Shown one piece after another: positions 3,281 through 31,224 of a stretch of DNA of 35,470 bases. The translations under genes and the position numbers were made by a program. The notes below the pieces were generated by a model. The model searched no databases. It saw only the letters and a list, made by a program, of their open reading frames with translations, and was not told where the DNA came from. The stretch's first letter is position 1. Every line of letters begins with the position of its first letter. This stretch comes from an uncultured virus (IMG/VR IMGVR_UViG_3300046536_000804) (lineage: Duplodnaviria; Heunggongvirae; Uroviricota; Caudoviricetes): IMG/VR virus record IMGVR_UViG_3300046536_000804, one strand, 5' to 3'.

Positions 3281-3639
3281 GGCGCCGATCCTTTCTTATT
3301 CCACGGCACCGCTGCCGCGGGGATGCCCTGGATGACCGCGTCCCAGTCACCTTCAAAGCGGAAGCCGCGATCGTCAACAACGACGATGTGCGGCGGCTTG
3401 TCGTTCGTCACGCTGTCGACCACGATGCCGTGGAGTTGCAGCCACTGTTCGATCGCAAAAATGCCACCCGGTTGGTGGCAACGGCTCGACACGATCACAA
3501 CGGTGTACGTTTCTCGCAACTTGGCGATGGCCTCCTTGGCGCCTCGAGTCGGCCGGTCCGGGATGACATCGGCTCCGCACCAACCGGATTCGTACGAGTG
3601 CACCACGCCATCGAAGTCGAGAACGATTGTTTGCTTCAC
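3277..3639 (-). CDS. HAD-superfamily phosphatase-like protein
   Basis: motif I IVLDFDGV, motif II SSR, KP...VVDDR motif III/IV. Confidence 0.8.
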   Translation of the reverse strand: MKQTIVLDFDGVVHSYESGWCGADVIPDRPTRGAKEAIAKLRETYTVVIVSSRCHQPGGIFAIEQWLQLHGIVVDSVTNDKPPHIVVVDDRGFRFEGDWDAVIQGIPAAAVPWNKKGSAP

Positions 3640-5971: not shown

Positions 5972-6202
5972 TCATTGGTTTATAAGTCCCTCGATGACCA
6001 GGTCCAGCACTTGCTCCGAGGCCTTCCAGTCGTTGTAGGCCTTGAGCAGTGCAGGACACTTGTTGCAAGCCTCCTCGAAATAATCCGTTCGAGATGGATC
6101 TCCTTTGTCTCGCCACGCCCAGGAGACTGCGTGTGCTAATTGGTGGGACAGGATTCGACCGTCGTCGGTTCCGTCGTTTTCGGTGTCGAGTTGGTTGGCC
6201 AC
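5972..6202 (-). CDS. hypothetical protein
   Basis: ORF with GGAGG SD. Confidence 0.5.
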   Translation of the reverse strand: MANQLDTENDGTDDGRILSHQLAHAVSWAWRDKGDPSRTDYFEEACNKCPALLKAYNDWKASEQVLDLVIEGLINQ

Positions 6203-6576
6203 GGGTTACCCTCCACGATTGTTGCAATACCTGGAAAGGCGATGTCAGCCTTATGAACCGCATCGGCCCAAGATTCATGCCTATCTTGTCGTTGTTGTAC
6301 GACAGAGCACCACGACAAGGCGGGCGAGGGCGGCACGTCGATCCGACTCTCGATGAGGCCGCTGTCGATGATAACCCCGACAATTGAAGTAGTGCCCGTG
6401 ACAGAGTGCCCGAGGGCGTTGAGCGCCTGACCGAAGATGCACCCGACGGAACCGTTGTCGCAGCTACCTTTGTCGTAACTACACCGGGTTTCCGTCGGAT
6501 CCTTCTTGTAGTGGTTGTTGGGATGAGCTGCGGCCAGCTTCCTGACGGCCAGGATTAAGTCTCGGATGGTGGACAT
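6136..6576 (-). CDS. GSVGCIFGQ family paralog 1
   Basis: CSYDKGSCDNGSVGCIFGQAL...WCSVVQQRQD...W. Confidence 0.8.
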   Translation of the reverse strand: MSTIRDLILAVRKLAAAHPNNHYKKDPTETRCSYDKGSCDNGSVGCIFGQALNALGHSVTGTTSIVGVIIDSGLIESRIDVPPSPALSWCSVVQQRQDRHESWADAVHKADIAFPGIATIVEGNPWPTNSTPKTTEPTTVESCPTN

Positions 6577-6947
6577 GAAACGGTCTCCTTTTGATTTAAC
6601 GCGGCGACGGAAAAGATCTTCCCGGCGTCTGCATACTCGACAGCTCGTGCCCAGGTGAACCCCTCGTCCTGCCAGTCTTGAACGTAGCTGCACCATAAGC
6701 CGGCAGGTCGGTCCCTTGCCAGGCCCAACTGCTCACGGTTGAACAAGATGCTGTTGATGGTGTAGGTACCGCTCGCAGGGTGACCAAGACGAGCCAACGC
6801 TTGACCGAAGATGCACCCGACTGATCCGTCGGTGCACACGCCGGCATCGTAACAACACTGCTTACCACCTGGTCTCGTGTACGTGTTGTCTGGCTTCTCG
6901 GCGGCCAGCTTGCGTACCTCTGCAATCACATCGTTGACGGTTATCAC
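6555..6947 (-). CDS. GSVGCIFGQ family paralog 2
   Basis: CYDAGVCTDGSVGCIFGQAL...WCSYVQDWQD. Confidence 0.85.
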   Translation of the reverse strand: MITVNDVIAEVRKLAAEKPDNTYTRPGGKQCCYDAGVCTDGSVGCIFGQALARLGHPASGTYTINSILFNREQLGLARDRPAGLWCSYVQDWQDEGFTWARAVEYADAGKIFSVAALNQKETVSCPPSET

Positions 6948-7315
6948 GTAACGGTCTCCGTAGTAGAAGGAAGAGGGTAAAGACGATTTGCACTCTCGAC
7001 TGCCTTACCCCATGACAGATTTGCATCCTGATACTGCTGCACCAGTTTGCACCACTCCACTTCATTGTCCAGATCGATCGTCAGTGGTTCGAACCAACGA
7101 GAATCGCACAGCGCCTGTGTAATGCTGCCACAGCCGGTAATTGGCCGACCTAGACGTTGCAACGCTTGACCGAAGATGCAGCCAACTGAGCCGTCTGTGC
7201 ACTGCCCCTTGTCGTAACAGCATCCACCCCACGCGTCCGTCGGGACGTAGCAGTTGTCCGGCTTCTCGGCGGCCAGCTTTCTGACTTCTGCAATCACGTT
7301 ATGGACGGTTATCAC
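6944..7315 (-). CDS. GSVGCIFGQ family paralog 3
   Basis: CYDKGQCTDGSVGCIFGQAL...WCKLVQQYQD. Confidence 0.85.
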   Translation of the reverse strand: MITVHNVIAEVRKLAAEKPDNCYVPTDAWGGCCYDKGQCTDGSVGCIFGQALQRLGRPITGCGSITQALCDSRWFEPLTIDLDNEVEWCKLVQQYQDANLSWGKAVESANRLYPLPSTTETVT

Positions 7316-7662
7316 GGTACGATCTCCTTCAAATCGGGGTAATCTTCATCAGCGCAGCTCACCGCCTCACCCCAGGTTTTTGAGGCGTCCTGGGCAGTCT
7401 GCACCGCTTGACACCAGTCGCGAGTCAGCCGGTCTGCATCAGAGAACAGTTCGTTACTGACCACGTAGATCTCGCGAGATCCGGTCACAAGGATGTCGAG
7501 ACCAACCAACGCTTGACCGAAGATGCAGCCAACTGAGCCGTCGGTACACCACCCTTTGTCGTAAAAGCACTGCTTGCCGAGTAGCGACGGCTGGTAGATG
7601 TTATCGGGATGGGCCTTGGCTAGGTTCCTCACTGCGACGATCAGGTCTCGGATGGTTGGCAT
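7312..7662 (-). CDS. GSVGCIFGQ family paralog 4
   Basis: start MPTIRD; CFYDKGWCTDGSVGCIFGQAL...WCQAVQTAQD. Confidence 0.85.
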   Translation of the reverse strand: MPTIRDLIVAVRNLAKAHPDNIYQPSLLGKQCFYDKGWCTDGSVGCIFGQALVGLDILVTGSREIYVVSNELFSDADRLTRDWCQAVQTAQDASKTWGEAVSCADEDYPDLKEIVP

Positions 7663-8021
7663 GTTGCCTCCTTTGGCAGCTCTTGAACAATAGGCCACTT
7701 GGTATTGGCCGATATAATGGCATCACCCCAGGAAAGACCGCCATCTTGAACATTTTGCACTTCACGGCACCAGGCGAGAATGACTAAACAATTACCAACA
7801 AAACGACTCCTTGCAATGATGTCGATTGAAGCGGTCCCGGTTACAGGATAGCCAAGGTTATTGAGCGCCTGCCCGAAGATGCAACCGACCGAGCCGTCGG
7901 TACACTCACCTTTTTCGTAGAAACATCCGCAAGACGTGCTCGGTTGTCGATAGACAGTATCGGGACGTTCGGCAGCTATCCGCCTGACCTCGGCAATCAA
8001 CTCTTTCACGTGCCGCTGCAT
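7641..8021 (-). CDS. GSVGCIFGQ family paralog 5
   Basis: CFYEKGECTDGSVGCIFGQAL...WCREVQNVQD. Confidence 0.85.
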   Translation of the reverse strand: MQRHVKELIAEVRRIAAERPDTVYRQPSTSCGCFYEKGECTDGSVGCIFGQALNNLGYPVTGTASIDIIARSRFVGNCLVILAWCREVQNVQDGGLSWGDAIISANTKWPIVQELPKEATCQPSET

Positions 8022-8407
8022 GGTTCCTCCTTAGGTTCAAAAGGTATTTCCATGTCGCTACCAGTGAGGACTGGGCAACTCTTACTTGCGTGCGACACAG
8101 CTTCGTACCAGGCATAACCAGAATCCTGCAAACGCTGCACAGTTTGACACCAGACCAGTGCCCTGCAGTTGGCCTTGAGCGCACCATAATCAAAACCAAG
8201 AACCTGGGGGATGCCTTCTCCACCATAGCCGTGAGGTGGATGCCCAAGATTCTCCAACGCTTGGCCGAAGATGCAGCCGACCGAGCCGTCGGCGCATTCG
8301 CCAGCGTCGTATTCGCAATTCTTCGACCCTGGCGAGCGGTAGTAACGATTGTCCGGACTGTTGGCGGCCAGCCTTTTCACCTCATCGATCAGATCTCGCA
8401 ACTTCAT
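8006..8407 (-). CDS. GSVGCIFGQ family paralog 6
   Basis: start MKLRD with GGAGG SD; CEYDAGECADGSVGCIFGQAL. Confidence 0.85.
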   Translation of the reverse strand: MKLRDLIDEVKRLAANSPDNRYYRSPGSKNCEYDAGECADGSVGCIFGQALENLGHPPHGYGGEGIPQVLGFDYGALKANCRALVWCQTVQRLQDSGYAWYEAVSHASKSCPVLTGSDMEIPFEPKEEPCSGT

Positions 8408-8498
8408 ACGTTGGGCCTCCGTTATGCGCGGCACAGCCACGCGACCACGATGCTAAGAAAAAGCAACAGGGTGACGCCCCACATGATGTATTCCGGTT

Positions 8499-8732
8499 TC
8501 AAGGCTCGGTCTCCTGTTGCCACGGTTGCTTCATGTACTCGATCATTTCATTTTCTCGGCGTTCCTTTTCCTTCTGGATGCCGTCCTCGACGCCCCACTT
8601 GTAGTTCCGCGTTTGCACACGTTTGAGCGACTCGGAGTACAGGGCTCGCTCGTTGGTCAGAATGTGCAGAAGGACGGCGACAACGGCACACATGGCTACG
8701 AGCATCAGGCACATCAGACAGTTCGTTTTCAC
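8499..8732 (-). CDS. small single-TM protein (paralog of 8729..8962)
   Basis: TM helix plus ESLKRV...WG...YMKQPWQ.ETEP. Confidence 0.7.
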   Translation of the reverse strand: MKTNCLMCLMLVAMCAVVAVLLHILTNERALYSESLKRVQTRNYKWGVEDGIQKEKERRENEMIEYMKQPWQQETEP

Positions 8733-8962
8733 GGTTCGGTCTCCGGCTGCCACGGTTGCTTCATGTAGTCGAGCATCTCCTGCTCGCGACGATCTTTCTC
8801 ATGTTTGACGCCTTCGTCGAAGCCCCATTGCTTCGACCAGGTTCTCACACGCTTGAGAGACTCATGGTACCTGTCCCGCTCGACGTGTCTTATCGCCGTC
8901 AGTCCGGCCAAGCTGATGACCAAGAATATAACCACCACGCCCAAGAATCGCTCGTTACTCAT
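8729..8962 (-). CDS. small single-TM protein (paralog of 8499..8732)
   Basis: start MSNERF; same C-terminal motif. Confidence 0.7.
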   Translation of the reverse strand: MSNERFLGVVVIFLVISLAGLTAIRHVERDRYHESLKRVRTWSKQWGFDEGVKHEKDRREQEMLDYMKQPWQPETEP

Positions 8963-9351
8963 GCAACAGTCTCCTTCTTGCCGGTGGCATAACGAAGCAC
9001 AGCCGGCGTTATTTCTGGATGCGGATGTGAGCCACTGGCCCGCTTGACTGCATCGCCCCACTCCATGCCGCTGTCTTGATACTTTTGCACGTCCTGGCAC
9101 CAGTCCGACGCCTCGTCGAAGAGATCGAGGCCCATCATGCTCAGCATGTGAGCGATACCGCCGTCACCGCCGATCGGATGACCTAACCGAACTAACACCT
9201 GACCGAAGATGCAGCCGACCGAGCCGTCGGTGCACCGCCCCCTGTGGTATGAGCAGATCATCGCAACCCCAGGCGGTTTGTGGTACTTGTTCATCGGCTT
9301 CTCAGCCGCGAGCTTCTTGACCTCTTTGACGACATCACACATCTGCAACAT
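8959..9351 (-). CDS. GSVGCIFGQ family paralog 7
   Basis: CSYHRGRCTDGSVGCIFGQVL...WCQDVQKYQD. Confidence 0.85.
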   Translation of the reverse strand: MLQMCDVVKEVKKLAAEKPMNKYHKPPGVAMICSYHRGRCTDGSVGCIFGQVLVRLGHPIGGDGGIAHMLSMMGLDLFDEASDWCQDVQKYQDSGMEWGDAVKRASGSHPHPEITPAVLRYATGKKETVA

Positions 9352-12716: not shown

Positions 12717-12901
12717 GGATTGCCGGTGCCGACAACGTGCACGGTGGCGTAATCATACGGTTGGATCGTGTCCACCATCGCCCACAACCAGATACAGCCG
12801 GTCTCATCGTCACCGGTCACTGCAAGTGCAACGGCGCCCTTGGCCATCGGTAATTTCTGCTCATCGGTAGTGATGATTGGATACTTGTGAATCTTCTTCA
12901 C
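12629..12901 (-). CDS. conserved small phage-type protein
   Basis: IHKY...WA.VD...GTG...YVGTV...VWHVF pattern. Confidence 0.7.
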   Translation of the reverse strand: MKKIHKYPIITTDEQKLPMAKGAVALAVTGDDETGCIWLWAMVDTIQPYDYATVHVVGTGNPCDYVNAEDYVGTVKYDDKVWHVFVTPPK

Positions 12902-12971
12902 TGTCAGTCCTTTCGTTGGTCAATGCGGACTTGTTTGGCTTCTTTGACCCGAAGCAAAGGGTTGTTGCCCG

Positions 12972-13364: not shown

Positions 13365-13423
13365 GATTCCTCCTGGTTGCTAGTCTCTATCCTCATTGAC
13401 CCGAGGGAGAGGGTTGTTAAACG

Positions 13424-13630: not shown

Positions 13631-13662
13631 AAAGCCTCCTCAGGGATATTTCCCGGCTGACC

Positions 13663-14286
13663 TCATTGACCCGAGGGAGAGGGTTGTTTTGCCTGGAGAC
13701 GACGCAGACGATCGATCTCTGCCGCAATCAGGGCGCCGGCGATGGTGAGCTTCTTGATATCGTCGAACGGGTACTTATCAGCGACGTGCGTGGCCCGCGC
13801 GGACGGCCACTGAGAGTCAGGCCATTCCTTGGCATAAGCTGCCGGCGTACCTTGATAACCATCAAGGATGAGCTGAGCACACAACCGCAACTGACCGGCC
13901 GTCTGCAGATCGTCACTGATCTCGGTGTAGCCCTTCTCCCAGATCTGTCGCATTCTCTCGGCCGAGATGAGATGAGTGCCGGATCGAAACGTGAGCACCG
14001 GCTTGTCGAGGAACGGCAGGTACGAGCGAATGATCGCCTGGTACGCCTTGACGACTGACTCGAAGGTGAGTGCATCGTCTTCAACGTCTTCGCAGTCGCC
14101 ATAACCGCTCTCGGAGTCCCAGACGACCGTGTCGTCGATGCTCATAGTGTCGGTGTAGCAGGAAGAAGTGACGTGGCAGACTGGCGTGGCCGGCTGGCCG
14201 CCTCGTTCGTCGAGCCAGGCCTGGACCTGGCTTTGTACCTCAGCGATCGTCTTTGACCGACCGCTTTCGTTTTCTGGCTTTGTCAT
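13663..14286 (-). CDS. phage-type protein with AER.RQ...AGALIAAEIDRL domain
   Basis: start MTKPEN; C-terminal domain pattern common in phage accessory genes. Confidence 0.65.
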   Translation of the reverse strand: MTKPENESGRSKTIAEVQSQVQAWLDERGGQPATPVCHVTSSCYTDTMSIDDTVVWDSESGYGDCEDVEDDALTFESVVKAYQAIIRSYLPFLDKPVLTFRSGTHLISAERMRQIWEKGYTEISDDLQTAGQLRLCAQLILDGYQGTPAAYAKEWPDSQWPSARATHVADKYPFDDIKKLTIAGALIAAEIDRLRRLQAKQPSPSGQ

Positions 14287-15920: not shown

Positions 15921-15963
15921 CGTGACCTCCTGATAGTTGGCCTCTTTCACCCGAGGCAAAGGG

Positions 15964-16203
15964 TCAGTCTTTCATGTACGGCTCTACCGCCACACTCAAC
16001 GCTTCATAGAAGGTGGCGAACGGGCCGAACCGATTCTCTTCGTCGCCTCGGTTATGCCAGTACCAGCCTTCCTCTCTCCACTCTCTCGGCTGCCCACCCC
16101 AGTACCAGCCAGAGCATTTGGCTCGCGTGAACTCTTTCTTCGTGTCCTCAGCAATGAGCATCATACGCTCAAGCTGAGTAAACACGACCGCAATGTTCGG
16201 CAT
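15964..16203 (-). CDS. hypothetical Trp-rich protein
   Basis: GWYW...GPF; stop overlaps pseudoknot element. Confidence 0.65.
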   Translation of the reverse strand: MPNIAVVFTQLERMMLIAEDTKKEFTRAKCSGWYWGGQPREWREEGWYWHNRGDEENRFGPFATFYEALSVAVEPYMKD

Positions 16204-20502: not shown

Positions 20503-20560
20503 GTGATCTCCTTGGTGATTGGTCTTCATTCCGCTGTCGTCTTTGACCCGACGCAGAGGG

Positions 20561-22357
20561 TTATTTGATATCGGGAATACTGCCAATCGGGACTGCTGGT
20601 GGTTGCGTCGGAGCACAGTTGCCGCGAAGGGCACTCGCCAGTTGCTCGAGCATTTCGATCGGCACTGTCAGGACGATTTTGGATTCACGGTCCGTCGTTA
20701 CGGAGATCGTGAAAGGCTCGGGTGCGTCTGCGTAGATCGGCAGGATTCGCGTGATCGGCATGCTCTGAAGCAGCATCTGCATCACCGGCCGAACGGAGTC
20801 TCTCGATACCGAGATATCGAACACGGCATGCCACTCACCGTCCAGATGACCGTGGGTGACCTTGGCCATCGGGATCATGTCGATCGCCTTGGCCAGGCCG
20901 CTCAACGAGCCTTTGACGGCCGGCTTCTTCTCGACCTTCGGTTCCTCGACCTCTGGAGTCTTCTCGACAATGGGCGCCTCGATCACTGGGCTGACCGGAG
21001 GCTTGGCGAAAGGAATAGAGATCGCCGGCGGTTCAGCAACCGCCGTTTCGAGAATCGGCGGTTTCGTCTCTATCGGCACCGGCTTCGGTAGCGCCTCTGG
21101 GAACTTCATCTTCACCTTCGTCGCATAGTGGATTGCCTCGGCCGCGGAGCCGAGATCGCGTAACTTGGCCGTGAAGCCGACCTGGTGCGGTTCCTGTTTG
21201 ATAATTCGCTTCACAGCCTCACGAGAGAGCAACGACGGCTGCCTGGCGATAGCCAACGTGATGATCTGTTCGTTCAGCGTTGGCATGGTGGTGGAGAACA
21301 CCACATCGTAGTCACCACCACAAGACGTCGTCTGGATCAGATTGGATTCGACGCCAGGCATGCCGAGCACTGCCTCACGTAACAGACTCTTGCACTTGAG
21401 TGATGCGATCGCCTGCGTCCCGTTGATGGTCAACGTGATGGCTTCGATGAACGTTGTCTGCATCGCATGGGTGAGAAGCAGCTCCCAGCGATCTTCCTGG
21501 GCTCGAAACGTACAACCCGGCAACAGCTTGATCGCCTCGAGCATCTTGGTAGCTGTGATCACCGCGTTCGTGCCGACGCGGATGAATACCCGCACGTTGG
21601 GCTCGTCCGGTGCGTTGCCTGGCGTCTCGACCAGGTAGACCACACGCAGACCGACCAGATCCTCCAACGCCTTGACCAGCGTTGAATATTTGATCCGTGC
21701 TCCCATGATCCCGAACGCCGAATCGAGGTTTGCATTTGCTTCTGGCGTAAAGGTTTGCGACCCGAACTGAGTAAGCATATGCTGAAACGGCGCCGCCGAT
21801 CCGAACGGCATCCTCAACGAGAACTGCCTGGTGCTGTTCGGGATCATGGTGAACTTCACGTAATGGAAGAACGACGAGACGTCCTTGATAAAGTTCAGAA
21901 GCTTGACGTCGTCTTCCGGCACCTGGCAGTGCGCGTCGATGTAAACCTTTTCCTCGGAGATGATGTCCGCAGCACACCGAATCACCGTCAGACGCGGCAG
22001 GGTGAGTAGCGACGCTCGCAGACCGTCTATGGTGTTCTGCGCCCGCTTATCAGTTACACGGTAAGCGAGCAGCCTGGTCATCTCCGCCATCCTGTCGTAT
22101 GGCACGATGACCCAGATGCCGATCGTCATGAGCTTGCCAATCTCGACCTGCAGACCGAGCTTGGTCAGAACGCCGATGAGATCGAGGTCGGTCAGCAGCG
22201 TGTGCTCGGTTCGCTGCAATTGGATGAGCGCATTGTCGGGATTGATGTGGTTCTTCACGACGAACATGGCCTTGGTCGTCAGCTCGCGATTGAGCAAGAT
22301 CAAGGCCGCCAGATCCGCCTTGGCGTGGCCGTAGCCGGTGGTGAATGGTCCGTACAT
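20561..22357 (-). CDS. large hypothetical multi-domain protein
   Basis: 598-aa ORF; N-terminus MYGPF..GY resembles MYDPF..GY of 23089..24486. Confidence 0.75.
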   Translation of the reverse strand: MYGPFTTGYGHAKADLAALILLNRELTTKAMFVVKNHINPDNALIQLQRTEHTLLTDLDLIGVLTKLGLQVEIGKLMTIGIWVIVPYDRMAEMTRLLAYRVTDKRAQNTIDGLRASLLTLPRLTVIRCAADIISEEKVYIDAHCQVPEDDVKLLNFIKDVSSFFHYVKFTMIPNSTRQFSLRMPFGSAAPFQHMLTQFGSQTFTPEANANLDSAFGIMGARIKYSTLVKALEDLVGLRVVYLVETPGNAPDEPNVRVFIRVGTNAVITATKMLEAIKLLPGCTFRAQEDRWELLLTHAMQTTFIEAITLTINGTQAIASLKCKSLLREAVLGMPGVESNLIQTTSCGGDYDVVFSTTMPTLNEQIITLAIARQPSLLSREAVKRIIKQEPHQVGFTAKLRDLGSAAEAIHYATKVKMKFPEALPKPVPIETKPPILETAVAEPPAISIPFAKPPVSPVIEAPIVEKTPEVEEPKVEKKPAVKGSLSGLAKAIDMIPMAKVTHGHLDGEWHAVFDISVSRDSVRPVMQMLLQSMPITRILPIYADAPEPFTISVTTDRESKIVLTVPIEMLEQLASALRGNCAPTQPPAVPIGSIPDIK

Positions 22358-22435
22358 AGATGGTCCTCAGGTGGTGATGGAATTGAGAGAGAGCAGATCG
22401 CCGGCGTCTTTGACCCGACGAGGAGGGTTGGACTC

Positions 22436-22990: not shown

Positions 22991-23088
22991 GGGACCTCCG
23001 TTCATTCGTTTTGAAGTTTGAATATCGGGATATCTTGCCGGCCACACGTCTTCATCTTTGACCCGATGAGAAGGGTTATCGAACACGA

Positions 23089-25044: not shown

Positions 25045-25389
25045 CTACGACTCGGCACGACCAAGGTAATCCAACCGGCCCGGTACGCTTTTGAAGGGTG
25101 TCTTCTCCTCGGTCGTCAACTCGACGTGGAACAACGGCAGCATTTGCCGCAACTCGTGGGCTAGCTCGGCCAGGTGAGGGTATCCCCTGGCAACCTCGCT
25201 CTGCAGAAACTTCTGACCGAAGTCAATGGCGTGGTGAAGAAGCATCTTCTGCTGCTCGTTGGGCATCATTGCCTTCAACCGCTCGATCTCGGCCCAGAGC
25301 AGCATCTCGCACTCAGTGGCTTCGGTTTCCGCCACGTTGTTGTTCGGCAGAATTAACTGCTTCATCTCTCCGACAATCTTGTACTTCAT
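25045..25389 (-). CDS. hypothetical protein
   Basis: shares GYPHL.E.A.ELR with 24501..25013. Confidence 0.6.
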   Translation of the reverse strand: MKYKIVGEMKQLILPNNNVAETEATECEMLLWAEIERLKAMMPNEQQKMLLHHAIDFGQKFLQSEVARGYPHLAELAHELRQMLPLFHVELTTEEKTPFKSVPGRLDYLGRAES

Positions 25390-25403
25390 CTTTTGTGCCT
25401 TTC

Positions 25404-25790
25404 CTAGTGATTGCTCGGTCGTGGCCTGATGTGCCAAGGGGCTGCGAGCGGTGTTTCCAGTAATGCTGCAACTATTCTCTCTGTCAGCGAGGTTGAAAAC
25501 CTGAAGTCAATGTGGTTGTCAGGCGTCACGACAAGCCTGAACTGGATAAGTTCTTTGAGCTCAAATCCTCCCTTCTTCAGCATCGCTCGAGCGACGATGT
25601 CAGTAAAGAGTGCCGCCGTTGGTGCTACCCCAGCGAATACCGAGATATCGAGGACAGCGCACCTCGACTTCAGCTCGAGATCGGCGCTGTGCATCGTCAT
25701 ACTAGGGAAGCACACGTCGAGCACTTGGCATAACTCATTAAGCTTCTCGCACTCTTTTTCCTCCCACCTTTCATCTGTCGAATTTGCCAT
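25404..25790 (-). CDS. hypothetical protein
   Basis: GAGGAGGAG SD. Confidence 0.65.
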   Translation of the reverse strand: MANSTDERWEEKECEKLNELCQVLDVCFPSMTMHSADLELKSRCAVLDISVFAGVAPTAALFTDIVARAMLKKGGFELKELIQFRLVVTPDNHIDFRFSTSLTERIVAALLETPLAAPWHIRPRPSNH

Positions 25791-25818
25791 AGCTCCTCCT
25801 CAAGAGTGGTTTTGTAAA

Positions 25819-25952
25819 AGCGACTGATTGGATTTGAACCAACATCCAGGGCTTGCGGCCCCGTCACCGAGATTTTCGTTGCACTTACTCACCTCGGTTA
25901 GTCTGACGGCTTGTGAGGCCATTCGACAGCTTTGCCATTAAGCTACAGCCGC
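25819..25952 (-). tRNA. atypical tRNA-like RNA (134 nt) with expanded central region
   Basis: acceptor GCGGCTG/CAGTCGC, D arm GCTT-AATGGCA-AAGC, T arm GTTGG-TTCAAAT-CCAAT; no encoded CCA; ~85 nt between D and T arms. Confidence 0.7.
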
Positions 25953-25956
25953 GCAC

Positions 25957-25995
25957 CAACAGAAAAGGCAGGCACGATGATATCGTGGCTGCCTT
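25957..25995 (-). terminator. probable intrinsic terminator or processing hairpin
   Basis: AAGGCAG-CACGAT / ATCGTG-CTGCCTT inverted repeat (13 bp, one mismatch) followed by TTTTCTGTT on the minus strand. Confidence 0.5.
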
Positions 25996-26010
25996 GATGC
26001 AATCCGTAAT

Positions 26011-26177
26011 TCTGTCTCTTTGACCCGAGACGAAGGGTTTACCTGGATCGAGTAATCGTTCGTCTTTCACCCGACGACGAGGGTCGAACCCGGCCATGTG
26101 GGCTTCACCATTGACCCGGTGAGCGGGGTTAACGGCACCCTCCGTAGCGTTCGTCTTTCGCCCGACGACGAGGGTTA
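26011..26177 (-). repeat. array of 4 pseudoknot elements (period 46/45/46)
   Basis: (A/G)CCC-N8-GGGT cores at 26023, 26069, 26114, 26160. Confidence 0.9.
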
Positions 26178-26411
26178 GATGTCTGGCGCCTGGTGCGCCC
26201 GCTCACGCAGATACCGGCTGACCCGGTTATGCGAAAGCTGCTTGGCCAGCAGCTCCAGACCGCTCACCACGAGGCGATCTTCGGCCGGGCTCTCGACGCC
26301 GCCGCGGCGTAGGATCTCCTCGAGACGGTCCTGCTTGGTCGCAAAAGAGTCCCATTCCTGGCGAAGACGTTCGTCCTCTTCCAGCACGTTCAGTTCGATG
26401 AGCTGACTCAT
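26175..26411 (-). CDS. hypothetical protein
   Basis: start MSQLIEL with GGAGG SD; TAA overlaps pseudoknot element. Confidence 0.65.
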   Translation of the reverse strand: MSQLIELNVLEEDERLRQEWDSFATKQDRLEEILRRGGVESPAEDRLVVSGLELLAKQLSHNRVSRYLRERAHQAPDI

Positions 26412-26538
26412 GGTGCACCTCCACCTGTTGCCTTTCCGGGGCGATGGGCGACGTAAGTAAGACGTGGTGATAATGTACAGGTTCACCCAGAAATGACGCA
26501 AGGGCAATCTGGAAAGGATCTTCCGAGAAGCGCTTTAG

Positions 26539-26712
26539 CTGCACTGATTGAGTCCAGGCAGAGACTTAAGTCGGCAGAATCAACGGTCCACGTCGCTCTG
26601 TTTTAGCCCAGGCGAAGGCTTGAAGAACCAGTCACTCTGGCCGAGATTACCGCGACTCCGTAGTTCACCAACGTATACGCCGTCTTCGTCTTTCACCCGA
26701 CGAGAAGGGTTA
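26539..26712 (-). repeat. cluster of 3 pseudoknot elements
   Basis: cores AGTC-N8-GACT 26551, AGCC-N8-GGCT 26605, ACCC-N8-GGGT 26695. Confidence 0.85.
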
Positions 26713-26789
26713 GATGTCCGGCGACTGCCGATGAGTTACATCACTCCAACGGCCTTCTGCGTTTCTGTCAACGCCGCAGAACGACTGGT

Positions 26790-27743
26790 TCAATTAACCA
26801 AACCTCGAAATGCCTTCAAGGCACGCACCTGAATCTGCCGCACTCGCTCACGTGAAATGCCCATCTCTTCACTGGCTTCTCGCAGGTTTTGCCTGGGACG
26901 ACCGTTGAGGCCGTAACGTCGCTCCAGCACCTCGCGATACCGGCTATCGAGGTATTGCAACAGGTCTTTGAGCAGGTTGAGGTGTTCTTCGTTCTCTAGC
27001 GAGTCGTCGATTTGCAAGGTTGGGATTTCATCCATGAAATTGCCCAGATTGTTGTGCTCGATCTCACTGACGTTCTTACAAGTGAGCACCAGGCAAGCAT
27101 TCTCCAGCAGCGCCAGGCGTTTCTTTTTGATCGGTTTGCCCTCTACCATCAGGCCTTGCAGGACTTCCTCGCGTGTCTTGCCGGTCATCTCGGCTTCCTG
27201 CATACGACGATTCAGCGTGTAAACCAGCGCGCTGATATGCGATGGTATCCGGATTCTGCGGCCGTGATCAACAAGGCCCTGACGAATGAAGTGCTTGATC
27301 CAGTACGTAGCGTAGGTGATGAACTTGATCTTCCGACTGGTGTCGAACTTTTCCACCGCTCGGATGAGGCCCATAACACCCTCTTGAATCAGATCCTCGA
27401 ACTCCAACCCACGCTTACGGTATTTCTTGGCAATGCTGACGACCAACCGAAGGTTGGCCTGAACGAGTTGATTCTTCGCGTCCTTACCGTCCTGGATGAC
27501 TGGGCCTAGACTGTCGGCCTCCGCGACGGCTTTCTTTCCTGGTCTTCGTTTCGACAACAGCTCTTTCTTACGAGCCATTGCGGCCTCACCAGCTTTGAAC
27601 CGCTGGAATAGGGCGATCTCTTCCGCCCTGTCAAGCAGGGGAATCTCGGAAAATCGGTAATCCATGGGCACCGACCTTGAATGACGGGCGATCCTATCGG
27701 CCGCAACCACACCTTCCTCCGGGCGGGTAGATGATGCTACCAC
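26790..27743 (-). CDS. sigma70-family RNA polymerase sigma factor (RpoD/RpoS-like, lacking region 1.1)
   Basis: region 1.2 IPLL..EEI.L; region 2 NLRLVVSIAKKY...DLIQEG.MGLIRAVEKFD...F.TYATYWI; region 4 YGL...L.E...MGISRERVRQI; start may be 27710 or 27665. Confidence 0.93.
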   Translation of the reverse strand: MVASSTRPEEGVVAADRIARHSRSVPMDYRFSEIPLLDRAEEIALFQRFKAGEAAMARKKELLSKRRPGKKAVAEADSLGPVIQDGKDAKNQLVQANLRLVVSIAKKYRKRGLEFEDLIQEGVMGLIRAVEKFDTSRKIKFITYATYWIKHFIRQGLVDHGRRIRIPSHISALVYTLNRRMQEAEMTGKTREEVLQGLMVEGKPIKKKRLALLENACLVLTCKNVSEIEHNNLGNFMDEIPTLQIDDSLENEEHLNLLKDLLQYLDSRYREVLERRYGLNGRPRQNLREASEEMGISRERVRQIQVRALKAFRGLVN

Positions 27744-27825: not shown

Positions 27826-30648
27826 TTAGCTGCCCAGCAACCTACCGAACCGAGATCGCTGGCCTTCGATGTCGATGCCCGATGCGGCCGCTCCGGCACG
27901 TTGAAACATCGACGGTTGGTATTCCTGGACCTGTTTGAGGAACGCACGTCGGCGCTCTGGGGTGAGCTGACTGATCACCGGCTTGATCTCCTGATCGGAG
28001 GCTCGGATCAGCGCCTGGATGTTGGGATGGCCTGATGTATCTACAAACCGGTTGGCGGTTCTCTCGACCGGTCCTTTCGGTCTTAACGCATTCTGAATGG
28101 CTGGCATGATCCGGCCAGGTTGACCACCGGATAGACCGTAGGCCGCGGTGCCCAGACCGCCGACGCCAACGCCGAGATTGAGAGCGGTCGAGCTCTCCGG
28201 CCGGGTCTGATTGAGTGCGGCCAGCAGGGCTGCAGTGCCTCCACCGATCGCCATCGCTTTGTGCTTGGGCTCCAGGCCGTGCCAGTGGTTGGTGAAGTCG
28301 TCCAGGACGCCGGACATCTTGACAGCCGCACCAGCCCAATGCTTGAGTTTATTCAGTGTTGAGGGCTGCTCGTAGCTCGTCGGGCCGAACACGCGTTTCT
28401 GTGTGAGGCTGCCACCGCCGTAACCAAGACCTGCACCCAGGACGGCGCCGCCTAACTCGGCAACAGGACGAGCATGTAAGCCTAGGTTCTTTCGTAGATA
28501 AGACAGTCGTCCAACATCGTGAAATGCTCGGCCTGTACGACCACCGAGGAAAGCTCCACCACCGGCAATCACGCCCTTGTAAAGGCCACGCAAAGCACCT
28601 TCACGAGCTCCACGCTTTGGGTTTTCCGTGTCGTTCTGCTTGCCACCAGCCGCATTGGCCAAAGTGCTCAGGCCAGCCATGTAGGCCGCATCGCCTGGCC
28701 CGGTCACGTTGGCTATGTAATTGCGGCTGGCTGTTGGGTCGTAATATCGCTCACCCGGGATGACTTTGACCTTCGGACTGACATGCCGAGGATGGTGCAC
28801 CATCGCCTTGCTAGGAGCCTTGGCAACCTTCCCGAACAACCGCTCCCGCCACGTGGGCTCTGGCTTCTTCGTCAGAGCGTTGGCAGCCATCATTCCTCCA
28901 ACGCCCAGACCAGCACCGCCAAGGCCTGCCATCGCAAAGCCTGGGGCTCGCGACAGCATCGAGACCGGTTGGGCGATCGGGATCGCTGACTGTGGCTTCG
29001 GCGATACCGCGGTATCGGCAAGTCCCGGCATGGTTGCCTGAGCTGGACCGCCACGTCCGGCCAGCATCGTTTGCTGACCCGGCAGGGCTGCAGTCGGGTA
29101 ATCAAGCTCGAATGGGCTCGGAGACGGCGGCCGCACCTTACTCTTGGGCATCATCAGTGTCTCTGCCTCGGCCGGCGGAGGCGAGAACGGCTTGCTCTTG
29201 AGAATCGGGCTCTTGGCCTTCATCGGCCTCTTGGGCGCCGTGGCCGCACCTTTCACCTTGCCAAGCAACGGTTCGATGTGGAAGGCCTGATGCTCGAAGC
29301 TCTGCGGTTGCGGGGGTTGCTCGCCACCGTACAGTCCACCGCCCGGCAGGGCCATCGGCAACACCATGCTGGCGCCGGTTAAGCCGCCAAGCACGCCGAG
29401 CTGACCGCCCATGCCACCGCTGCTCCAGAACGGGGTAGGTTGGCCGTGGATGGCGTTGTGATGCACGAAGGCCTCACCCACGTTCTTGTTGGGCGTGGCG
29501 TTGATGGCGTCCATTGCCTGGGTACGACCACCAAAACGACCGAGAGCTGCAGAAGCATCAGCTCGGGCGGTTCCTGGCACCCTGTTCATGATGTGCTGTA
29601 CGTCCATGCCAGCCCGCCTCGCTTGATTGGCAGCCTGCTGAGCAACCTGTTGAGCGGGGCGTTGCATGGCCGTGCCGGCCTCGGCAACGGCACCGCTCAC
29701 GCGTCCACCGAACAACGAGGGCACCTTGCTGGCAATACCGGTCAAGGCCTTGCCACCCCAGTTGAGTAATGGCCGAACGATCGGCGCCTTGGCAAGGGCC
29801 GGCAGTATCCTCGTAGCGGCTGCAATGGTCGGGCCGACCCAGGCTTCTTTGGCGATGCTCGCGTCCGCTCGTTTTAGCCCGAGGGAAGGCTTAGTGAGGA
29901 GTCCTTCGGGAAGGATGAAGGATGCGGTGACTTCTTTGCCGACCTGCAGGCCGACGTGACCACCGAGGCCTCCGAGCAGCCCACCACCCAACAGGGCTGC
30001 GTTCTGATGCATCACTTTATCTCCGTGACCCAGCGGCATGTCAAGGTGACCACCCTTGCTGAGCTTCTTCACACCTTTATGGCCACCGACGGCACCGATA
30101 CCAAGGCCCAGGCCAGCCAAGGCGCCACGAGTAGCACCGCCTCGTTCACCGCGGTAACGACCAACAGCCTCACCGATCAGGCCGCCACCGATCGTGGTAG
30201 CGGCCGGGATCGCAAGCATGCCGGCACCGGCGGTCTTCGTTGCTGATTGCCGTTCCGCATCTTTGACCCGATGGGAAGGGTTTATGCGACCGACATGGGC
30301 TGCCTCTTTGACCCGAGGAGCAAGGTTTTCCTCCTCTACGCTGGCAGCATCATTAACCCGATGAGCAGGGTTCGCGTTATCGATCTCTGCTGCCTCTTTG
30401 ACCTGAGGAGCAAGGTTGACCTGAGTCGCTTTGGACGAACAGGCTGCATCATTCACCCGATGAGCAGGGTTTGCCGCGCATCTCAAGGCCGCTTCTTTGA
30501 CCCGAAGGGCAGGGTCGGCACCCACGAACTCGTCGGCCAGCTCGGGGAATAGAGCACAGGCGGATTTGACCGCCTGCGTGAGCTGAGCTGCCGACAGATT
30601 GCGTTCTTCGCAGCGAGCCAGGAACGCAGTGACCATTGGTGTGTTCAT
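27826..30648 (-). CDS. large Gly-zipper/low-complexity protein (possible virion-internal polyprotein)
   Basis: open frame >900 aa; probable start MNTPMV; Gly-zipper hydrophobic segments; contains 7 pseudoknot elements. Confidence 0.7.
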   Translation of the reverse strand: MNTPMVTAFLARCEERNLSAAQLTQAVKSACALFPELADEFVGADPALRVKEAALRCAANPAHRVNDAACSSKATQVNLAPQVKEAAEIDNANPAHRVNDAASVEEENLAPRVKEAAHVGRINPSHRVKDAERQSATKTAGAGMLAIPAATTIGGGLIGEAVGRYRGERGGATRGALAGLGLGIGAVGGHKGVKKLSKGGHLDMPLGHGDKVMHQNAALLGGGLLGGLGGHVGLQVGKEVTASFILPEGLLTKPSLGLKRADASIAKEAWVGPTIAAATRILPALAKAPIVRPLLNWGGKALTGIASKVPSLFGGRVSGAVAEAGTAMQRPAQQVAQQAANQARRAGMDVQHIMNRVPGTARADASAALGRFGGRTQAMDAINATPNKNVGEAFVHHNAIHGQPTPFWSSGGMGGQLGVLGGLTGASMVLPMALPGGGLYGGEQPPQPQSFEHQAFHIEPLLGKVKGAATAPKRPMKAKSPILKSKPFSPPPAEAETLMMPKSKVRPPSPSPFELDYPTAALPGQQTMLAGRGGPAQATMPGLADTAVSPKPQSAIPIAQPVSMLSRAPGFAMAGLGGAGLGVGGMMAANALTKKPEPTWRERLFGKVAKAPSKAMVHHPRHVSPKVKVIPGERYYDPTASRNYIANVTGPGDAAYMAGLSTLANAAGGKQNDTENPKRGAREGALRGLYKGVIAGGGAFLGGRTGRAFHDVGRLSYLRKNLGLHARPVAELGGAVLGAGLGYGGGSLTQKRVFGPTSYEQPSTLNKLKHWAGAAVKMSGVLDDFTNHWHGLEPKHKAMAIGGGTAALLAALNQTRPESSTALNLGVGVGGLGTAAYGLSGGQPGRIMPAIQNALRPKGPVERTANRFVDTSGHPNIQALIRASDQEIKPVISQLTPERRRAFLKQVQEYQPSMFQRAGAAASGIDIEGQRSRFGRLLGS
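30254..30517 (-). repeat. in-frame array of 6 pseudoknot elements (period 45,45,45,54,45)
   Basis: cores at 30266, 30311, 30356, 30401, 30455, 30500; translate as NP.HRV(K/N)(D/E)A-type repeats. Confidence 0.9.
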
Positions 30649-30664
30649 AGAAGTGTCCCATGTA

Positions 30665-30867
30665 CCTTCGTCATTCACCCGACGAGGAGGGTTAAGGTGG
30701 CAATCATTTTTCTGTGATCTTTGACCCGATCCAGAGGGTTCACATAGAAAAATGTACTGCAAGATGCGTTACATCACGATCCCCGGCGTGGTAGTAGGCA
30801 GAGCTTGCAGCACTTGGTTTGCGGATGGTCAGCACCGGCCTCGTCATTCACCCGACGGGCAGGGTTG
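30665..30867 (-). repeat. 3 pseudoknot elements upstream of the large ORF
   Basis: cores at 30677, 30724, 30850. Confidence 0.85.
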
Positions 30868-30899
30868 GTTCGCCAAGGGTATCATCCCGCCTTGAGGCA

Positions 30900-31055: not shown

Positions 31056-31070
31056 ACTTCCTCCTGTGCA

Positions 31071-31197
31071 CCTACGTCTTTCGCCCGACGAGGAGGGTTG
31101 TAGTTACGTCTCGCCATCACGGTCCTCATCTTTAACCCGATGGGCAGGGTTAGACGATGCCATGGCTTCTTCGTCTTTAACCCGACGAGAAGGGTCA
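31071..31197 (-). repeat. array of 3 pseudoknot elements
   Basis: cores at 31083, 31135, 31180. Confidence 0.88.
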
Positions 31198-31224
31198 TGC
31201 ACAGCTTACGGCACGCAATTAAGC

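What the first reader, a model, noticed from the sequence alone, without database searches (positions are those of the whole stretch)
25819..25952. tRNA-like RNA with three hairpins, and two candidate anticodon loops, between D and T arms
SEEN: canonical 7-bp acceptor stem (G4-U wobble), U8A9, D arm with GG, and T arm with TTCAAAT loop, but ~85 nt between them instead of ~22. Hairpin 1 (25906-25922) is ATGGC-CTCACAA-GCCGT, a textbook CU-NNN-AA loop with anticodon CAC (Val), extended by a GTC/GAC helix. Hairpin 2 (25867-25897) is CCGAGGT/ATCTCGG with a 17-nt loop. Hairpin 3 (25847-25863) is CGGGG-CCGCAAG-CCCTG (GCA, Cys), and the discriminator is U, a known tRNA-Cys identity element. It is too short for tmRNA or a group I intron. 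INFERRED: a tRNA mimic or decoy (e.g. against anticodon nucleases), an unusual intron-containing tRNA, or a fused or degenerate tRNA.
Basis: partly seen in the sequence, partly recalled or inferred. Interest (0 to 1): 0.8.

Follow-up and report, generated by a model that had tools for sequence, protein, structure and literature searches.

The report
Oversized cysteine-tRNA-like gene in phage
A soil phage carries a 134-base gene that has every part of a cysteine tRNA plus an extra 64-base, two-hairpin module wedged between two of its arms, making it one more of the poorly understood oversized tRNA look-alikes of phages.

Summary
The gene lies on the minus strand (25952 to 25819). Rfam's tRNA model matches end to end (39.4 bits, cut-off 29), with 79 nt where 17 are expected. 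The three hairpins are exactly as described and very stable.

I found no relative of the RNA or of its phage, so covariation could not be tested and no RNA data exist.

My best reading is a tRNA-Cys(GCA) frame with a single 64-nt insert (25864-25927) between the D arm and the anticodon arm. Hairpin 3 carries the loop CCGCAAG. That loop is the anticodon loop of 8 distinct normal-sized phage tRNA-Cys genes in IMG/VR, 6 of them with U73. The same loop also caps variable arms of phage tRNA-Ser.

ARAGORN with introns allowed prefers a 45-nt anticodon-loop intron. That stem costs 15 kcal/mol in the precursor and leaves a pyrimidine at position 37. There is no BHB motif.

Whether the insert is excised or kept is open. 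I lean towards a full-length, non-decoding stable RNA like phage T5 RNA1 and RNA2.

In passing I found a 22-copy covarying hairpin motif in the phage's leader regions.

The parts
25819..25952 (-). whole tRNA-like gene, 134 nt
   Evidence: Rfam RF00005 scores 39.4 bits against GA 29, covering model positions 1-71.
25946..25952 (-). acceptor stem, 5' strand GCGGCUG
   Evidence: 7 of 7 pairs with 25820-25826, including G4-U69.
25929..25943 (-). D arm GCUU-AAUGGCA-AAGC, class I type, with A14, A15, G18, G19 and A21
   Evidence: cmscan alignment; fold.
25864..25927 (-). 64-nt module between the D arm and hairpin 3. It holds stalk GUC/GAC, hairpin 1, UA, hairpin 2 and GA. In my best reading this is the insert.
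   Evidence: Removing it in a script leaves a 70-nt sequence that ARAGORN calls tRNA-Cys(GCA) at 110% of its thresholds.
25906..25922 (-). hairpin 1, AUGGC-CUCACAA-GCCGU (a Val-type CAC loop), on stalk 25925-25927 / 25901-25903
   Evidence: Pair probabilities are 0.95-1.0 for the hairpin and 0.97-0.99 for the stalk.
25866..25898 (-). hairpin 2, ACCGAGGU / AUCUCGGU, with the 17-nt loop GAGUAAGUGCAACGAAA
   Evidence: Pair probabilities are 0.93-1.0. Its 3' strand is what ARAGORN uses as the anticodon-stem 3' strand.
25872..25916 (-). the 45-nt 'intron' of ARAGORN's alternative model (a rival reading)
   Evidence: Forcing that anticodon stem costs 15.4 kcal/mol.
25847..25863 (-). hairpin 3, CGGGG-CCGCAAG-CCCUG. 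It is either a Cys-type anticodon arm (best reading) or a class II variable arm (rival).
   Evidence: Pair probabilities are 0.95-1.0. The same loop occurs in phage tRNA-Cys anticodon arms and in tRNA-Ser variable arms.
25844..25846 (-). GAU linker (variable loop of 3 nt; U48 opposite A15)
   Evidence: Sequence.
25827..25843 (-). T arm GUUGG-UUCAAAU-CCAAU
   Evidence: cmscan alignment.
25819..25826 (-). acceptor 3' strand CAGUCGC and discriminator U. No CCA is encoded.
25965..25995 (-). 14-bp hairpin followed by UUUUCUGUU, terminator-like, ending 13 nt before the RNA's 5' end
   Evidence: Inverted repeat I1, 93% complementary. The terminator scan reports its inner 6-pair core, 25973-25987.
26004..26179 (-). 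three copies of the phage's repeated leader hairpin motif (26141-26179, 26050-26088, 26004-26042) upstream of the gene
25404..25790 (-). next ORF (128 aa, an orphan). Its GAGGAGGAG Shine-Dalgarno sequence and ATG begin 28 nt after the RNA's 3' end.

Best explanation
This is a phage gene for a 134-nt tRNA-shaped RNA built on a cysteine-tRNA frame.

It holds a complete set of tRNA-Cys(GCA) parts:
- acceptor stem with discriminator U73
- a class I D arm
- an anticodon arm with the phage-type loop CCGCAAG (hairpin 3)
- a 3-nt variable loop
- a T arm

One 64-nt module, made of an extended Val-like hairpin and a second hairpin, is inserted between the D arm and the anticodon arm.

Shown: the parts, their stability, and the match of hairpin 3 to real phage tRNA-Cys genes.

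Inferred:
- The transcript is trimmed like a tRNA (RNase P at the 5' end, 3' trimming and CCA addition), because the whole upper half is canonical.
- As made, it cannot decode, because the insert sits at the hinge between the D stem and the anticodon stem and turns the four-way junction into a six-way one.
- Most likely it persists at full length as a non-decoding, tRNA-like stable RNA, like T5 RNA1 and RNA2. It may still be recognised by enzymes that read U73, the GCA loop or the tRNA elbow, and so act as a competitor or decoy.

The less likely alternative is that the 64 nt are cut out to give a 70-nt tRNA-Cys.
For: tRNA frame:
- Rfam tRNA scores 39.4 bits over the full model, and the tertiary-contact bases are intact (sequence).

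Stable fold:
- The three hairpins and the stalk have pair probabilities of 0.93-1.0. Fold z is -3.30 for the whole RNA and -2.74 for the middle part.

Cys reading:
- In a scan of 938 single-deletion variants, removing 64 nt (start at RNA 25 or 26) gives a 70-nt tRNA-Cys(GCA) that passes ARAGORN at 110% of its thresholds.
- The pattern CCGCAAG-N10-14-GGTTCRAATCC gave 78 IMG/VR loci. In 12 loci (8 distinct sequences) ARAGORN calls a normal-sized tRNA-Cys(GCA) with CCGCAAG as its anticodon loop. Of the 8, 6 have U73.
- Further 68-70-nt tRNAs (L175, L179, L246, L243, L240) carry the same capped arm at the anticodon position. L175, L179, L246 and L243 have the same 11-nt distance to the T loop as here; L240 has 12.
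- One insertion event suffices for this reading. The other readings need several.

Inserts at the same place elsewhere:
- Other oversized tRNAs in phage and metagenome contigs also carry about 50-nt inserts between the D arm and a canonical anticodon arm.

Precedent for full-length stable tRNA-like RNAs:
- T5 RNA1 (144 nt) and RNA2 (125 nt) are annotated 'tRNA-like stable RNA with unknown functions'. RNA1 matches the tRNA model at 24 bits over 131 nt.

Weak support:
- Cys makes up 2.35% of 9195 codons in the window's ORFs. From memory this is about twice a typical bacterial proteome.
Against: - No homologue was found, so no covariation supports any hairpin, and the insert boundaries are inferred from one sequence.
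- There is no expression data.
- CCGCAAG hairpins at this distance from the T loop are about as often variable arms of class II tRNAs (6 tRNA-Ser loci, five 88-nt 'Met' loci and one 'Asn' locus), with gaps of 10-11 nt like the 11 nt here. Most tRNA-Cys have gaps of 12-14.
- The Cys reading needs a 3-nt variable loop, C33 instead of U33, and a possible C32-G38 pair.
- At the strictest ARAGORN threshold (115%) only six variants survive, all 45-nt deletions with start RNA 31-39: Ala 3, Phe 2, Ser 1.
- Whole-sequence similarity of the 70-nt core to 255 tRNAs from my loci shows no isotype preference. The best hit is a Thr and the second a Cys.
- 'Stable and unspliced' rests on analogy with T5 alone.
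Confidence: 0.35

Rival explanations
1. The frame is the same tRNA-Cys, but the 64-nt module is an intervening sequence. It is cut out at the D/anticodon junction and the halves are ligated, giving a working 70-nt tRNA-Cys(GCA) for a cysteine-rich phage proteome.
For: - The 70-nt product passes ARAGORN at 110% of its thresholds.
- The CCGCAAG loop with U73 matches real phage tRNA-Cys genes.
- Both insert ends lie in single-stranded linkers of the central junction in the MFE fold.
- A conserved group of about 50-nt inserts occupies the same region (positions 26-30) in tRNAs of several isotypes that keep canonical anticodon arms.
- 'Enigmatic' introns have been reported in Lak megaphage tRNAs (PMC6784885, passages read).
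- Cys is 2.35% of codons.
Against: - From memory, no bacterial or phage machinery is known for such an excision.
- There is no BHB motif.
- No RNA ligase or endonuclease family was found among 62 ORFs scanned.
- The insert lacks the conserved end motifs of the other insert groups.
- No insert-free variant appears in the one run that holds the contig.
Confidence: 0.2
2. Hairpin 1 is the working arm. The RNA is a tRNA mimic with a double-length anticodon arm ending in a perfect Val-type loop (CUCACAA) and two 'variable' arms (hairpins 2 and 3). It offers anticodon-loop look-alikes to host enzymes, for example tRNA-cutting defence nucleases.
For: - The stalk follows position 26 directly, as an anticodon stem should. 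GUC-GA-AUGGC / GCCGU-CA-GAC forms a 10-layer helix.
- The loop has C32, U33, A37 and A38 (sequence).
- 335 of 938 deletion variants are called tRNA-Val(CAC) at default thresholds.
- Hairpin 3 matches tRNA-Ser variable arms.
- T5 RNA1 has a long hairpin in place of the anticodon arm, plus a side arm.
Against: - The Val variants mostly fail at 110% of thresholds; only 2 are left.
- The discriminator is U, not the A73 of tRNA-Val (recalled identity rule).
- This reading needs several insertions rather than one.
- Nothing in the window links the gene to a nuclease or a defence system.
Confidence: 0.15
3. ARAGORN's model is right. The gene is a class II tRNA (89 nt, long variable arm formed by hairpin 3) with a 45-nt intron after position 37 of the anticodon loop (25872-25916). 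ARAGORN calls it tRNA-Ala(GGC).
For: -: anticodon stem GUCGA/UCGGU sits exactly after position 26 and exactly two bases before the variable arm.
- At 115% of thresholds the only six surviving variants are 45-nt deletions.
- The CCGCAAG hairpin at a 10-11-nt gap is typical of tRNA-Ser variable arms.
Against: - The anticodon stem has pair probability 0.0 in the precursor, and forcing it costs 15.4 kcal/mol (-34.0 against -49.4).
- Every 45-nt junction in that scan leaves a pyrimidine at position 37: AUGGCCC, AUGGAUC, AUGAAUC (and the sequence).
- There is no G3:U70 and no A73 for Ala, and no G73 for Ser (recalled identity rules).
- The D arm is class I type.
- There is no BHB motif and no group I signature.
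Confidence: 0.1
4. It is a tRNA gene inactivated by an insertion and now decaying, with no function.
For: - It is the only tRNA-like gene in 35 kb.
- It has no relatives.
- It has a non-canonical anticodon region.
- It sits directly behind a terminator-like hairpin, and the scan found no sigma-70-type promoter.
Against: - All 16 stem pairs of the acceptor, D and T arms are intact, as are all the tertiary-contact bases.
- The insert forms three mismatch-free hairpins.
- Phage genomes rarely keep dead DNA (general knowledge).
Confidence: 0.15

Closest known systems
Phage T5 RNA1 (144 nt) and RNA2 (125 nt), annotated in NC_005859 as 'tRNA-like stable RNA with unknown functions'
   Same: Phage-encoded RNAs of 125-144 nt with tRNA acceptor and T arms and an enlarged, non-canonical lower body. 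Function is unknown.
   Different: - No sequence or insert similarity.
- T5 RNA1 scores only 24 bits on the tRNA model, against 39.4 here.
- The T5 RNAs lie in a large tRNA cluster, whereas this gene stands alone.
- This RNA keeps a regular Cys-type anticodon hairpin.
- The stability of the T5 RNAs is taken from the record's wording. I read no paper on it.
Normal-sized phage tRNA-Cys(GCA) genes with the anticodon loop CCGCAAG (IMG/VR loci L186, L188, L207, L216, L219, L239 and others)
   Same: An identical 7-nt loop, the position of the arm next to the T arm, and U73 in 6 of 8 distinct sequences.
   Different: - They are 70-75 nt long and have no insert.
- The variable loop is mostly 4-6 nt (gap 12-14) against 3 nt here.
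- No overall sequence affinity was detected.
'Enigmatic' introns in tRNA genes of Lak megaphages (Devoto et al. 2019, PMC6784885; passages read)
   Same: Oversized tRNA genes in large phages, with short inserts that match no Rfam family and have no known splicing route.
   Different: - The Lak inserts were placed in or next to the anticodon loop by tRNAscan's eukaryotic mode.
- Variants with and without the insert exist there, but none was found here.
- Their sequences were not compared with this one. The supplement was not opened.
Phage T4 species 1 RNA (rnaC, 139 nt)
   Same: A stable small phage RNA with an acceptor-like stem and a T arm, and no known function.
   Different: - Only 17.5 bits, and to the tRNA-Sec model.
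- There is no D arm match.
- It is not similar in sequence.
Archaeal tRNA introns at non-canonical positions (bulge-helix-bulge type)
   Same: An insert outside the anticodon loop of a tRNA gene.
   Different: - A brute-force search found no usable BHB. It gave 5 hits with 2-3-bp flanking helices, all of which clash with the tRNA core.
- The phage encodes a sigma-70 family factor, so its host is bacterial.
Class II tRNAs (tRNA-Ser) with a long variable arm
   Same: The hairpin with loop CCGCAAG/CGCAA lies 10-11 nt before the T loop, as in 6 phage tRNA-Ser loci.
   Different: - The D arm is class I type.
- The discriminator is U.
- No canonical anticodon arm precedes the hairpin unless 45 nt are removed.

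Membership tests
tRNA (Rfam RF00005) | Score at or above the curated gathering threshold over the full model | tested here: met
   39.4 bits against GA 29, covering model positions 1-71.
tRNA (Rfam RF00005) | A 5-bp anticodon stem with a 7-nt loop directly between position 26 and the variable loop | tested here: not met
   79 nt replace 17 model positions. Default ARAGORN finds no gene.
tRNA-Cys | GCA anticodon in a hairpin next to the variable loop and T arm | tested here: met
   Hairpin 3 has the loop CCGCAAG, and ARAGORN calls the 64-nt deletion variant Cys(GCA). The same loop occurs in 8 distinct phage tRNA-Cys genes.
tRNA-Cys | Discriminator U73 (recalled identity element) | tested here: met
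   U at 25819. 6 of 8 comparison tRNA-Cys genes also have U73.
tRNA-Cys | Canonical anticodon loop (U33, unpaired 32/38) and a variable loop of 4-5 nt | tested here: not met
   The loop has C33, a possible C32-G38 pair, and a 3-nt variable loop. C33 is shared with the phage tRNA-Cys set.
tRNA-Cys | Charging by CysRS and decoding of UGY codons | not testable with these tools
   This needs aminoacylation and translation assays.
Archaeal/eukaryal-type tRNA intron | Bulge-helix-bulge motif at the exon-intron borders | tested here: not met
Group I intron in tRNA | Ribozyme core of about 200 nt or more, with a match to the Rfam intron models | tested here: not met
   The insert is 45-64 nt, and Rfam gives no hit at E up to 10.
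tmRNA / Y RNA-like (YrlA) | Match to the family models; a tag reading frame or a Ro-binding stem | tested here: not met
   ARAGORN finds no tmRNA. No Rfam match at E up to 10. No TROVE protein by Pfam.
Phage tRNA-like stable RNAs (T5 RNA1/RNA2 kind) | A tRNA upper half with an enlarged non-decoding lower body | tested here: met
   for this RNA. for T5.
Phage tRNA-like stable RNAs (T5 RNA1/RNA2 kind) | Accumulates as a stable full-length RNA | not testable with these tools
   No RNA run holds the sequence.
Phage tRNA-like stable RNAs (T5 RNA1/RNA2 kind) | Sequence or structural homology to T5 RNA1/RNA2 | tested here: not met
   The covariance model of the insert finds nothing in the T5 or T4 loci.

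The most novel reading that the evidence does not exclude
The 64-nt module marks a so far undescribed way of interrupting tRNAs in phages of bacteria. One possibility is a protein-dependent intervening sequence at the D/anticodon hinge (positions 26/27), released to give tRNA-Cys plus a small two-hairpin RNA. The other is a retained extra domain on a tRNA that CysRS can still charge, making a cysteinyl-tRNA look-alike that stays out of the ribosome and acts as a decoy or donor. The conserved about-50-nt inserts I saw at the same hinge in other phage and metagenome tRNAs would then be the main body of this class.
Probability: 0.2. Interest if true: 0.8.

Novelty: new variant of a known kind. 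Interest (0 to 1): 0.5.

Why it matters
Oversized tRNA look-alikes have been annotated in phages T4 and T5 (records read) and noted again in Lak megaphages, yet none has a known function or processing route.

This example is unusually readable. The tRNA frame is intact, its isotype can be guessed (Cys), and the extra RNA forms a discrete 64-nt block at a defined place. That makes three outcomes directly testable: the block is spliced out, it is kept, or it makes the RNA a decoy.

If the hinge insert is excised, bacteria or their phages would have a tRNA-splicing route that is not described. If it is kept and the RNA is charged, this would be a natural tRNA mimic aimed at a synthetase or a tRNA-targeting defence.

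On present evidence it is a single orphan sequence, so its weight is moderate.

Tried and rejected
Relatives of the RNA:
- blastn of 1201 nt against 50,697 phage records gave no match.
- blastn of the 134 nt at E up to 10 gave only 19-34-nt matches to arms of tRNAs of five isotypes in 15 records.
- Three IMG/VR pattern scans specific to this RNA gave 0 hits, 6 chance hits inside coding DNA, and 1 unrelated contig.
- A covariance model of the insert, built from the one sequence entered twice, found only itself across 243 sources: the window and 242 loci.

Relatives of the phage:
- The search for related loci with the sigma factor and the 128-aa neighbour found none.
- The 128-aa and 978-aa proteins are singletons among 5.8 billion proteins. 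The search is word-indexed, so distant relatives can be missed.
- tblastn of the 978-aa protein against phages gave nothing.
- The repeated leader motif gave 0 hits in IMG/VR and 3 single chance hits in GTDB genomes.
- No whole genome is held for this window.

Expression:
- No RNA holder is listed. The one run holding the DNA is a rhizosphere metagenome and may be the source.
- Laying that run's contigs confirmed the stretch at depth 12 with no variant or joint. This is not independent evidence.

Structure and family ideas:
- BHB motif: none.
- Ribozyme, riboswitch, YrlA and tmRNA families: none in Rfam.
- The hairpin 2 loop has a 12-bp match to 12821-12834 inside an ORF, at -20.7 kcal/mol. 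Shuffled loops reach -21.0, so it is not significant.
- A 5-nt complementarity between the hairpin 1 loop (CUCAC) and GUGAG in hairpin 2 was seen by eye and not tested.

Neighbours:
- Pfam, PHROGs and NCBIfam give no RNA-processing enzyme.
- One sub-threshold hit to a HAD domain of RNA-repair proteins lies at 3277-3639 (21.5 bits against a cut-off of 27.5).
- The ESM Atlas was uninformative for the 128-aa and 465-aa proteins.

Isotype by similarity:
- Inconclusive.

Literature:
- Seven full-text searches found no paper on short inserts between the D and anticodon arms of phage tRNAs, and none on tRNA-like decoys of this build.
- Subscription journals are not covered by these searches.

Full report
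**What is there.** On the minus strand, 25952 to 25819, lies a 134-nt sequence that Rfam's tRNA model matches from its first to its last position. The score is 39.4 bits against a gathering score of 29, with E 4.6e-5 for the whole window. It is the only Rfam match in 35 kb. The alignment keeps the acceptor stem, D arm, variable-loop end and T arm at high posterior probability, and it skips 17 model positions (the anticodon arm) against 79 nt of sequence. Default ARAGORN finds nothing in the window. A permissive Rfam search of 25300-26700 adds only a chance microRNA hit (E 9.3), so no tmRNA, Y RNA, ribozyme, riboswitch or intron family is involved.

The predicted fold is acceptor, D arm, a 3-bp stalk with hairpin 1, hairpin 2, hairpin 3, then T arm. 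It has -49.4 kcal/mol, z = -3.30, and 0 of 200 shuffles fold as well. The middle 85 nt alone give z = -2.74. Every pair of the three hairpins and the stalk has probability 0.93-1.0.

**Where it sits.** The genes I take as real all run on the minus strand. Of 62 ORFs scanned, only a sigma-70 family factor (26790-27743) has a Pfam or NCBIfam name. PHROGs adds several families of unknown function, among them seven tandem paralogues of phrog_572 at 6136-9351, which marks the DNA as phage. The 128-aa and 978-aa neighbours occur only on this one contig of 159,470 bases among 5.8 billion proteins.

The RNA follows a 14-bp hairpin with a U run that ends 13 nt before its 5' end. It precedes a strong Shine-Dalgarno sequence and ATG by 28 nt. 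No CCA is encoded. The consensus scan found no sigma-70-type promoter.

**Search for relatives.** This would have been the decisive test, and it failed.
- There is no DNA similarity in 50,697 phage records beyond 19-34-nt matches to generic tRNA arms.
- RNA-specific patterns found no homologue in IMG/VR.
- Neighbouring proteins found no related locus.
- The phage's own repeated motif found no related contig.
- The only sequencing run holding the DNA is a rhizosphere metagenome that may be its source. Its contigs show the stretch unchanged, with no insert-free variant.

So there is no covariation, no expression evidence, and no natural variant to fix the insert's borders.

**Three ways to read the body.**

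The anticodon stem is GUCGA/UCGGU and hairpin 3 is the long variable arm. The stem lies in perfect register: directly after position 26 and two bases before the variable arm. In a scan of 938 single-deletion variants, the only six that pass 115% of ARAGORN's thresholds are 45-nt deletions.

Against this, the stem competes with hairpin 2. Its pair probability in the precursor is 0.0, and forcing it costs 15.4 kcal/mol. Every 45-nt junction in that scan leaves a pyrimidine at position 37. The D arm is class I type. Neither the Ala nor the Ser identity elements (recalled) are present. No bulge-helix-bulge motif exists.

(b) Hairpin 1 has a textbook loop (C32 U33 CAC A37 A38), but it stands on a 10-layer helix (GUC, a GA/CA internal loop, then AUGGC). 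Hairpins 2 and 3 would then be two variable arms. 335 of the 938 variants are called tRNA-Val(CAC) at default thresholds, but only 2 at 110%.

(c) Hairpin 3 is the anticodon arm of a tRNA-Cys(GCA), and the 64 nt between it and the D arm (25864-25927) are one insert. The 70-nt remainder passes ARAGORN at 110%.

**Test of reading (c).** I scanned IMG/VR for CCGCAAG 10-14 nt before a T loop and got 78 loci.
- In 12 loci (8 distinct sequences), ARAGORN calls a normal 70-75-nt tRNA-Cys(GCA) whose anticodon loop is exactly CCGCAAG, C33 included. Six of the 8 have U73.
- Four further 69-70-nt tRNAs (L175, L179, L246, L243) have the same capped arm at the anticodon position, the same 11-nt distance to the T loop as here, and a similar D arm. 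L240 (68 nt, gap 12) also carries this arm.
- The same motif is also the loop of variable arms in 6 tRNA-Ser loci, five 88-nt 'Met' loci and one 'Asn' locus, with gaps of 10-11 nt.

So the motif alone does not decide. What tips the balance to (c):
- the U discriminator
- the class I D arm
- the lack of any canonical anticodon arm in reading (a)
- parsimony, since one insertion into an ordinary phage tRNA-Cys explains everything

Weak extra support is that Cys makes up 2.35% of 9195 codons in the window's ORFs, which from memory is about twice the usual figure. Against (c) stand the 3-nt variable loop, C33, a possible C32-G38 pair, and the absence of isotype affinity in overall similarity.

**Is the insert removed?** I cannot tell.

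For a stable, unspliced RNA:
- The T5 record annotates RNA1 (144 nt) and RNA2 (125 nt) as 'tRNA-like stable RNA with unknown functions'.
- RNA1 matches the tRNA model at 24 bits over 131 nt and folds with a long hairpin in place of the anticodon arm.
- T4 rnaC is a weaker parallel.
- Earlier notes of this scan list several similar phage RNAs. I checked only the T5 lead.

For excision:
- Lak megaphage tRNAs carry 'enigmatic' introns (PMC6784885, passages read).
- Oversized tRNAs are common. In my pattern scans, 24 of 38 IMG/VR loci had a 113-137-nt tRNA with 6-7 acceptor pairs. The viral and metagenome loci together gave 91 such sequences.
- That set is mixed. It holds archaeal-type tRNA-Tyr (C1:G72) with long introns, partial duplications next to complete tRNAs, and two groups with inserts of about 50 nt between the D arm and a canonical anticodon arm.
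- One group is flanked by C(U/G)AAAA and UUAC(A/U)UC, with a covarying helix, in 7 tRNAs with different anticodon loops.
- This RNA has neither group's motifs.

An insert at the hinge would probably clash with the ribosome (inference from tRNA-ribosome structures, recalled). So as transcribed this RNA should not decode.

**Verdict.** The gene is real and tRNA-shaped. It is most likely a tRNA-Cys frame with a 64-nt two-hairpin insert at the D/anticodon hinge. Its function is untested.

I put 0.35 on a full-length, non-decoding tRNA-like RNA processed by the tRNA end-maturation enzymes. The rivals are:
- 0.20 that the insert is excised to give tRNA-Cys
- 0.15 that it is a mimic using hairpin 1
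- 0.10 that ARAGORN's anticodon-loop intron is right
- 0.15 that it is a dead gene

It is a new variant of a known but unexplained kind of phage RNA.

Noticed in passing
window, minus strand: 31161-31199, 31116-31154, 31064-31102, 30831-30869, 30705-30743, 30658-30696, 30481-30519, 30436-30474, 30337-30375, 30292-30330, 30247-30285, 26676-26714, 26141-26179, 26050-26088, 26004-26042, 23042-23080, 22394-22432, 20527-20565, 15930-15968, 13650-13688, 13380-13418, 12928-12966: There are 22 copies of a roughly 30-nt motif, all in the sense of the genes. It consists of AACCCU, a 7-bp stem with a 1-nt bulge, and the invariant loop GGGUNAAA. The stem covaries strongly: 96.7% of cells are paired against 80% in shuffles (0 of 500 reach it), 5 of 7 pairs show compensatory changes, and slid controls give 30-40% (15 copies against 0.41 expected). 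ACCC could pair with the loop's GGGU as a pseudoknot, but both are invariant. Copies sit 5-35 nt before Shine-Dalgarno sequences and start codons. Eleven lie between 30247 and 31199, seven of them (30247-30743) about 45 nt apart. The motif is not in Rfam, IMG/VR or, beyond chance, GTDB genomes. It may be a leader RNA element or protein-binding site of this phage.
   Followed up: partly
window 30247-30762: The 978-aa ORF (27826-30762), and the 936-aa gene call on record for it, both run through seven copies of the leader motif. The true start is probably downstream of about 30247.
   Followed up: no
loci L047:995-1124, L063:412-533, L066:995-1124, L067:995-1118, L097:990-1115(-), L126:2-122(-), L136:295-417: These seven oversized tRNAs have different anticodon loops. 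Each carries a 45-55-nt insert in the 5' strand of the anticodon stem or just before it (positions 26-30). The insert starts with (C/G)UAAAA, ends with UUAC(A/U)U, and has a covarying helix. A canonical anticodon arm follows. My seven literature searches found no description of it.
   Followed up: partly
loci L008, L009, L012, L021, L035, L036, L084, L110, L138 (and the variants L027, L033, L040, L043, L132): A second group of oversized tRNAs has a hairpin followed by CAGCAAU(U) between the D arm and a canonical anticodon arm. The arms include one with the loop CUUUAAA, anticodon UUA.
   Followed up: no
loci L186, L188, L207, L208, L216, L219, L239, L247 (IMG/VR): These normal-sized phage tRNA-Cys(GCA) genes have C33 instead of the near-universal U33 (loop CCGCAAG). 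Several come from contigs of 200-480 kb.
   Followed up: partly
window 6136-9351, minus strand: Seven tandem paralogues of PHROG family 572 (unknown function), each about 125-185 aa.
   Followed up: no
window 12821-12834 (minus strand) against the hairpin 2 loop: A 12-bp complementarity (11 Watson-Crick pairs and 1 G-U) between the 17-nt loop of hairpin 2 and a site inside a 90-aa ORF. It is within the range of shuffled controls.
   Followed up: yes
loci L051, L073, L120, L122, L125, L140, L147, L154 (metagenome contigs): These tRNA-Tyr(GUA) genes have an archaeal-type C1:G72 pair and 49-67-nt introns. The intron's 3' part can pair with the anticodon-stem 5' strand, and the introns share AUGA and UGA boxes that look like a kink-turn or C/D motif (that label is recalled, not tested).
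   Followed up: no
window, 43 minus-strand ORFs: Cysteine is 2.35% of 9195 codons (UGC 140, UGU 76), which is high for a bacterial virus by my recollection.
   Followed up: no
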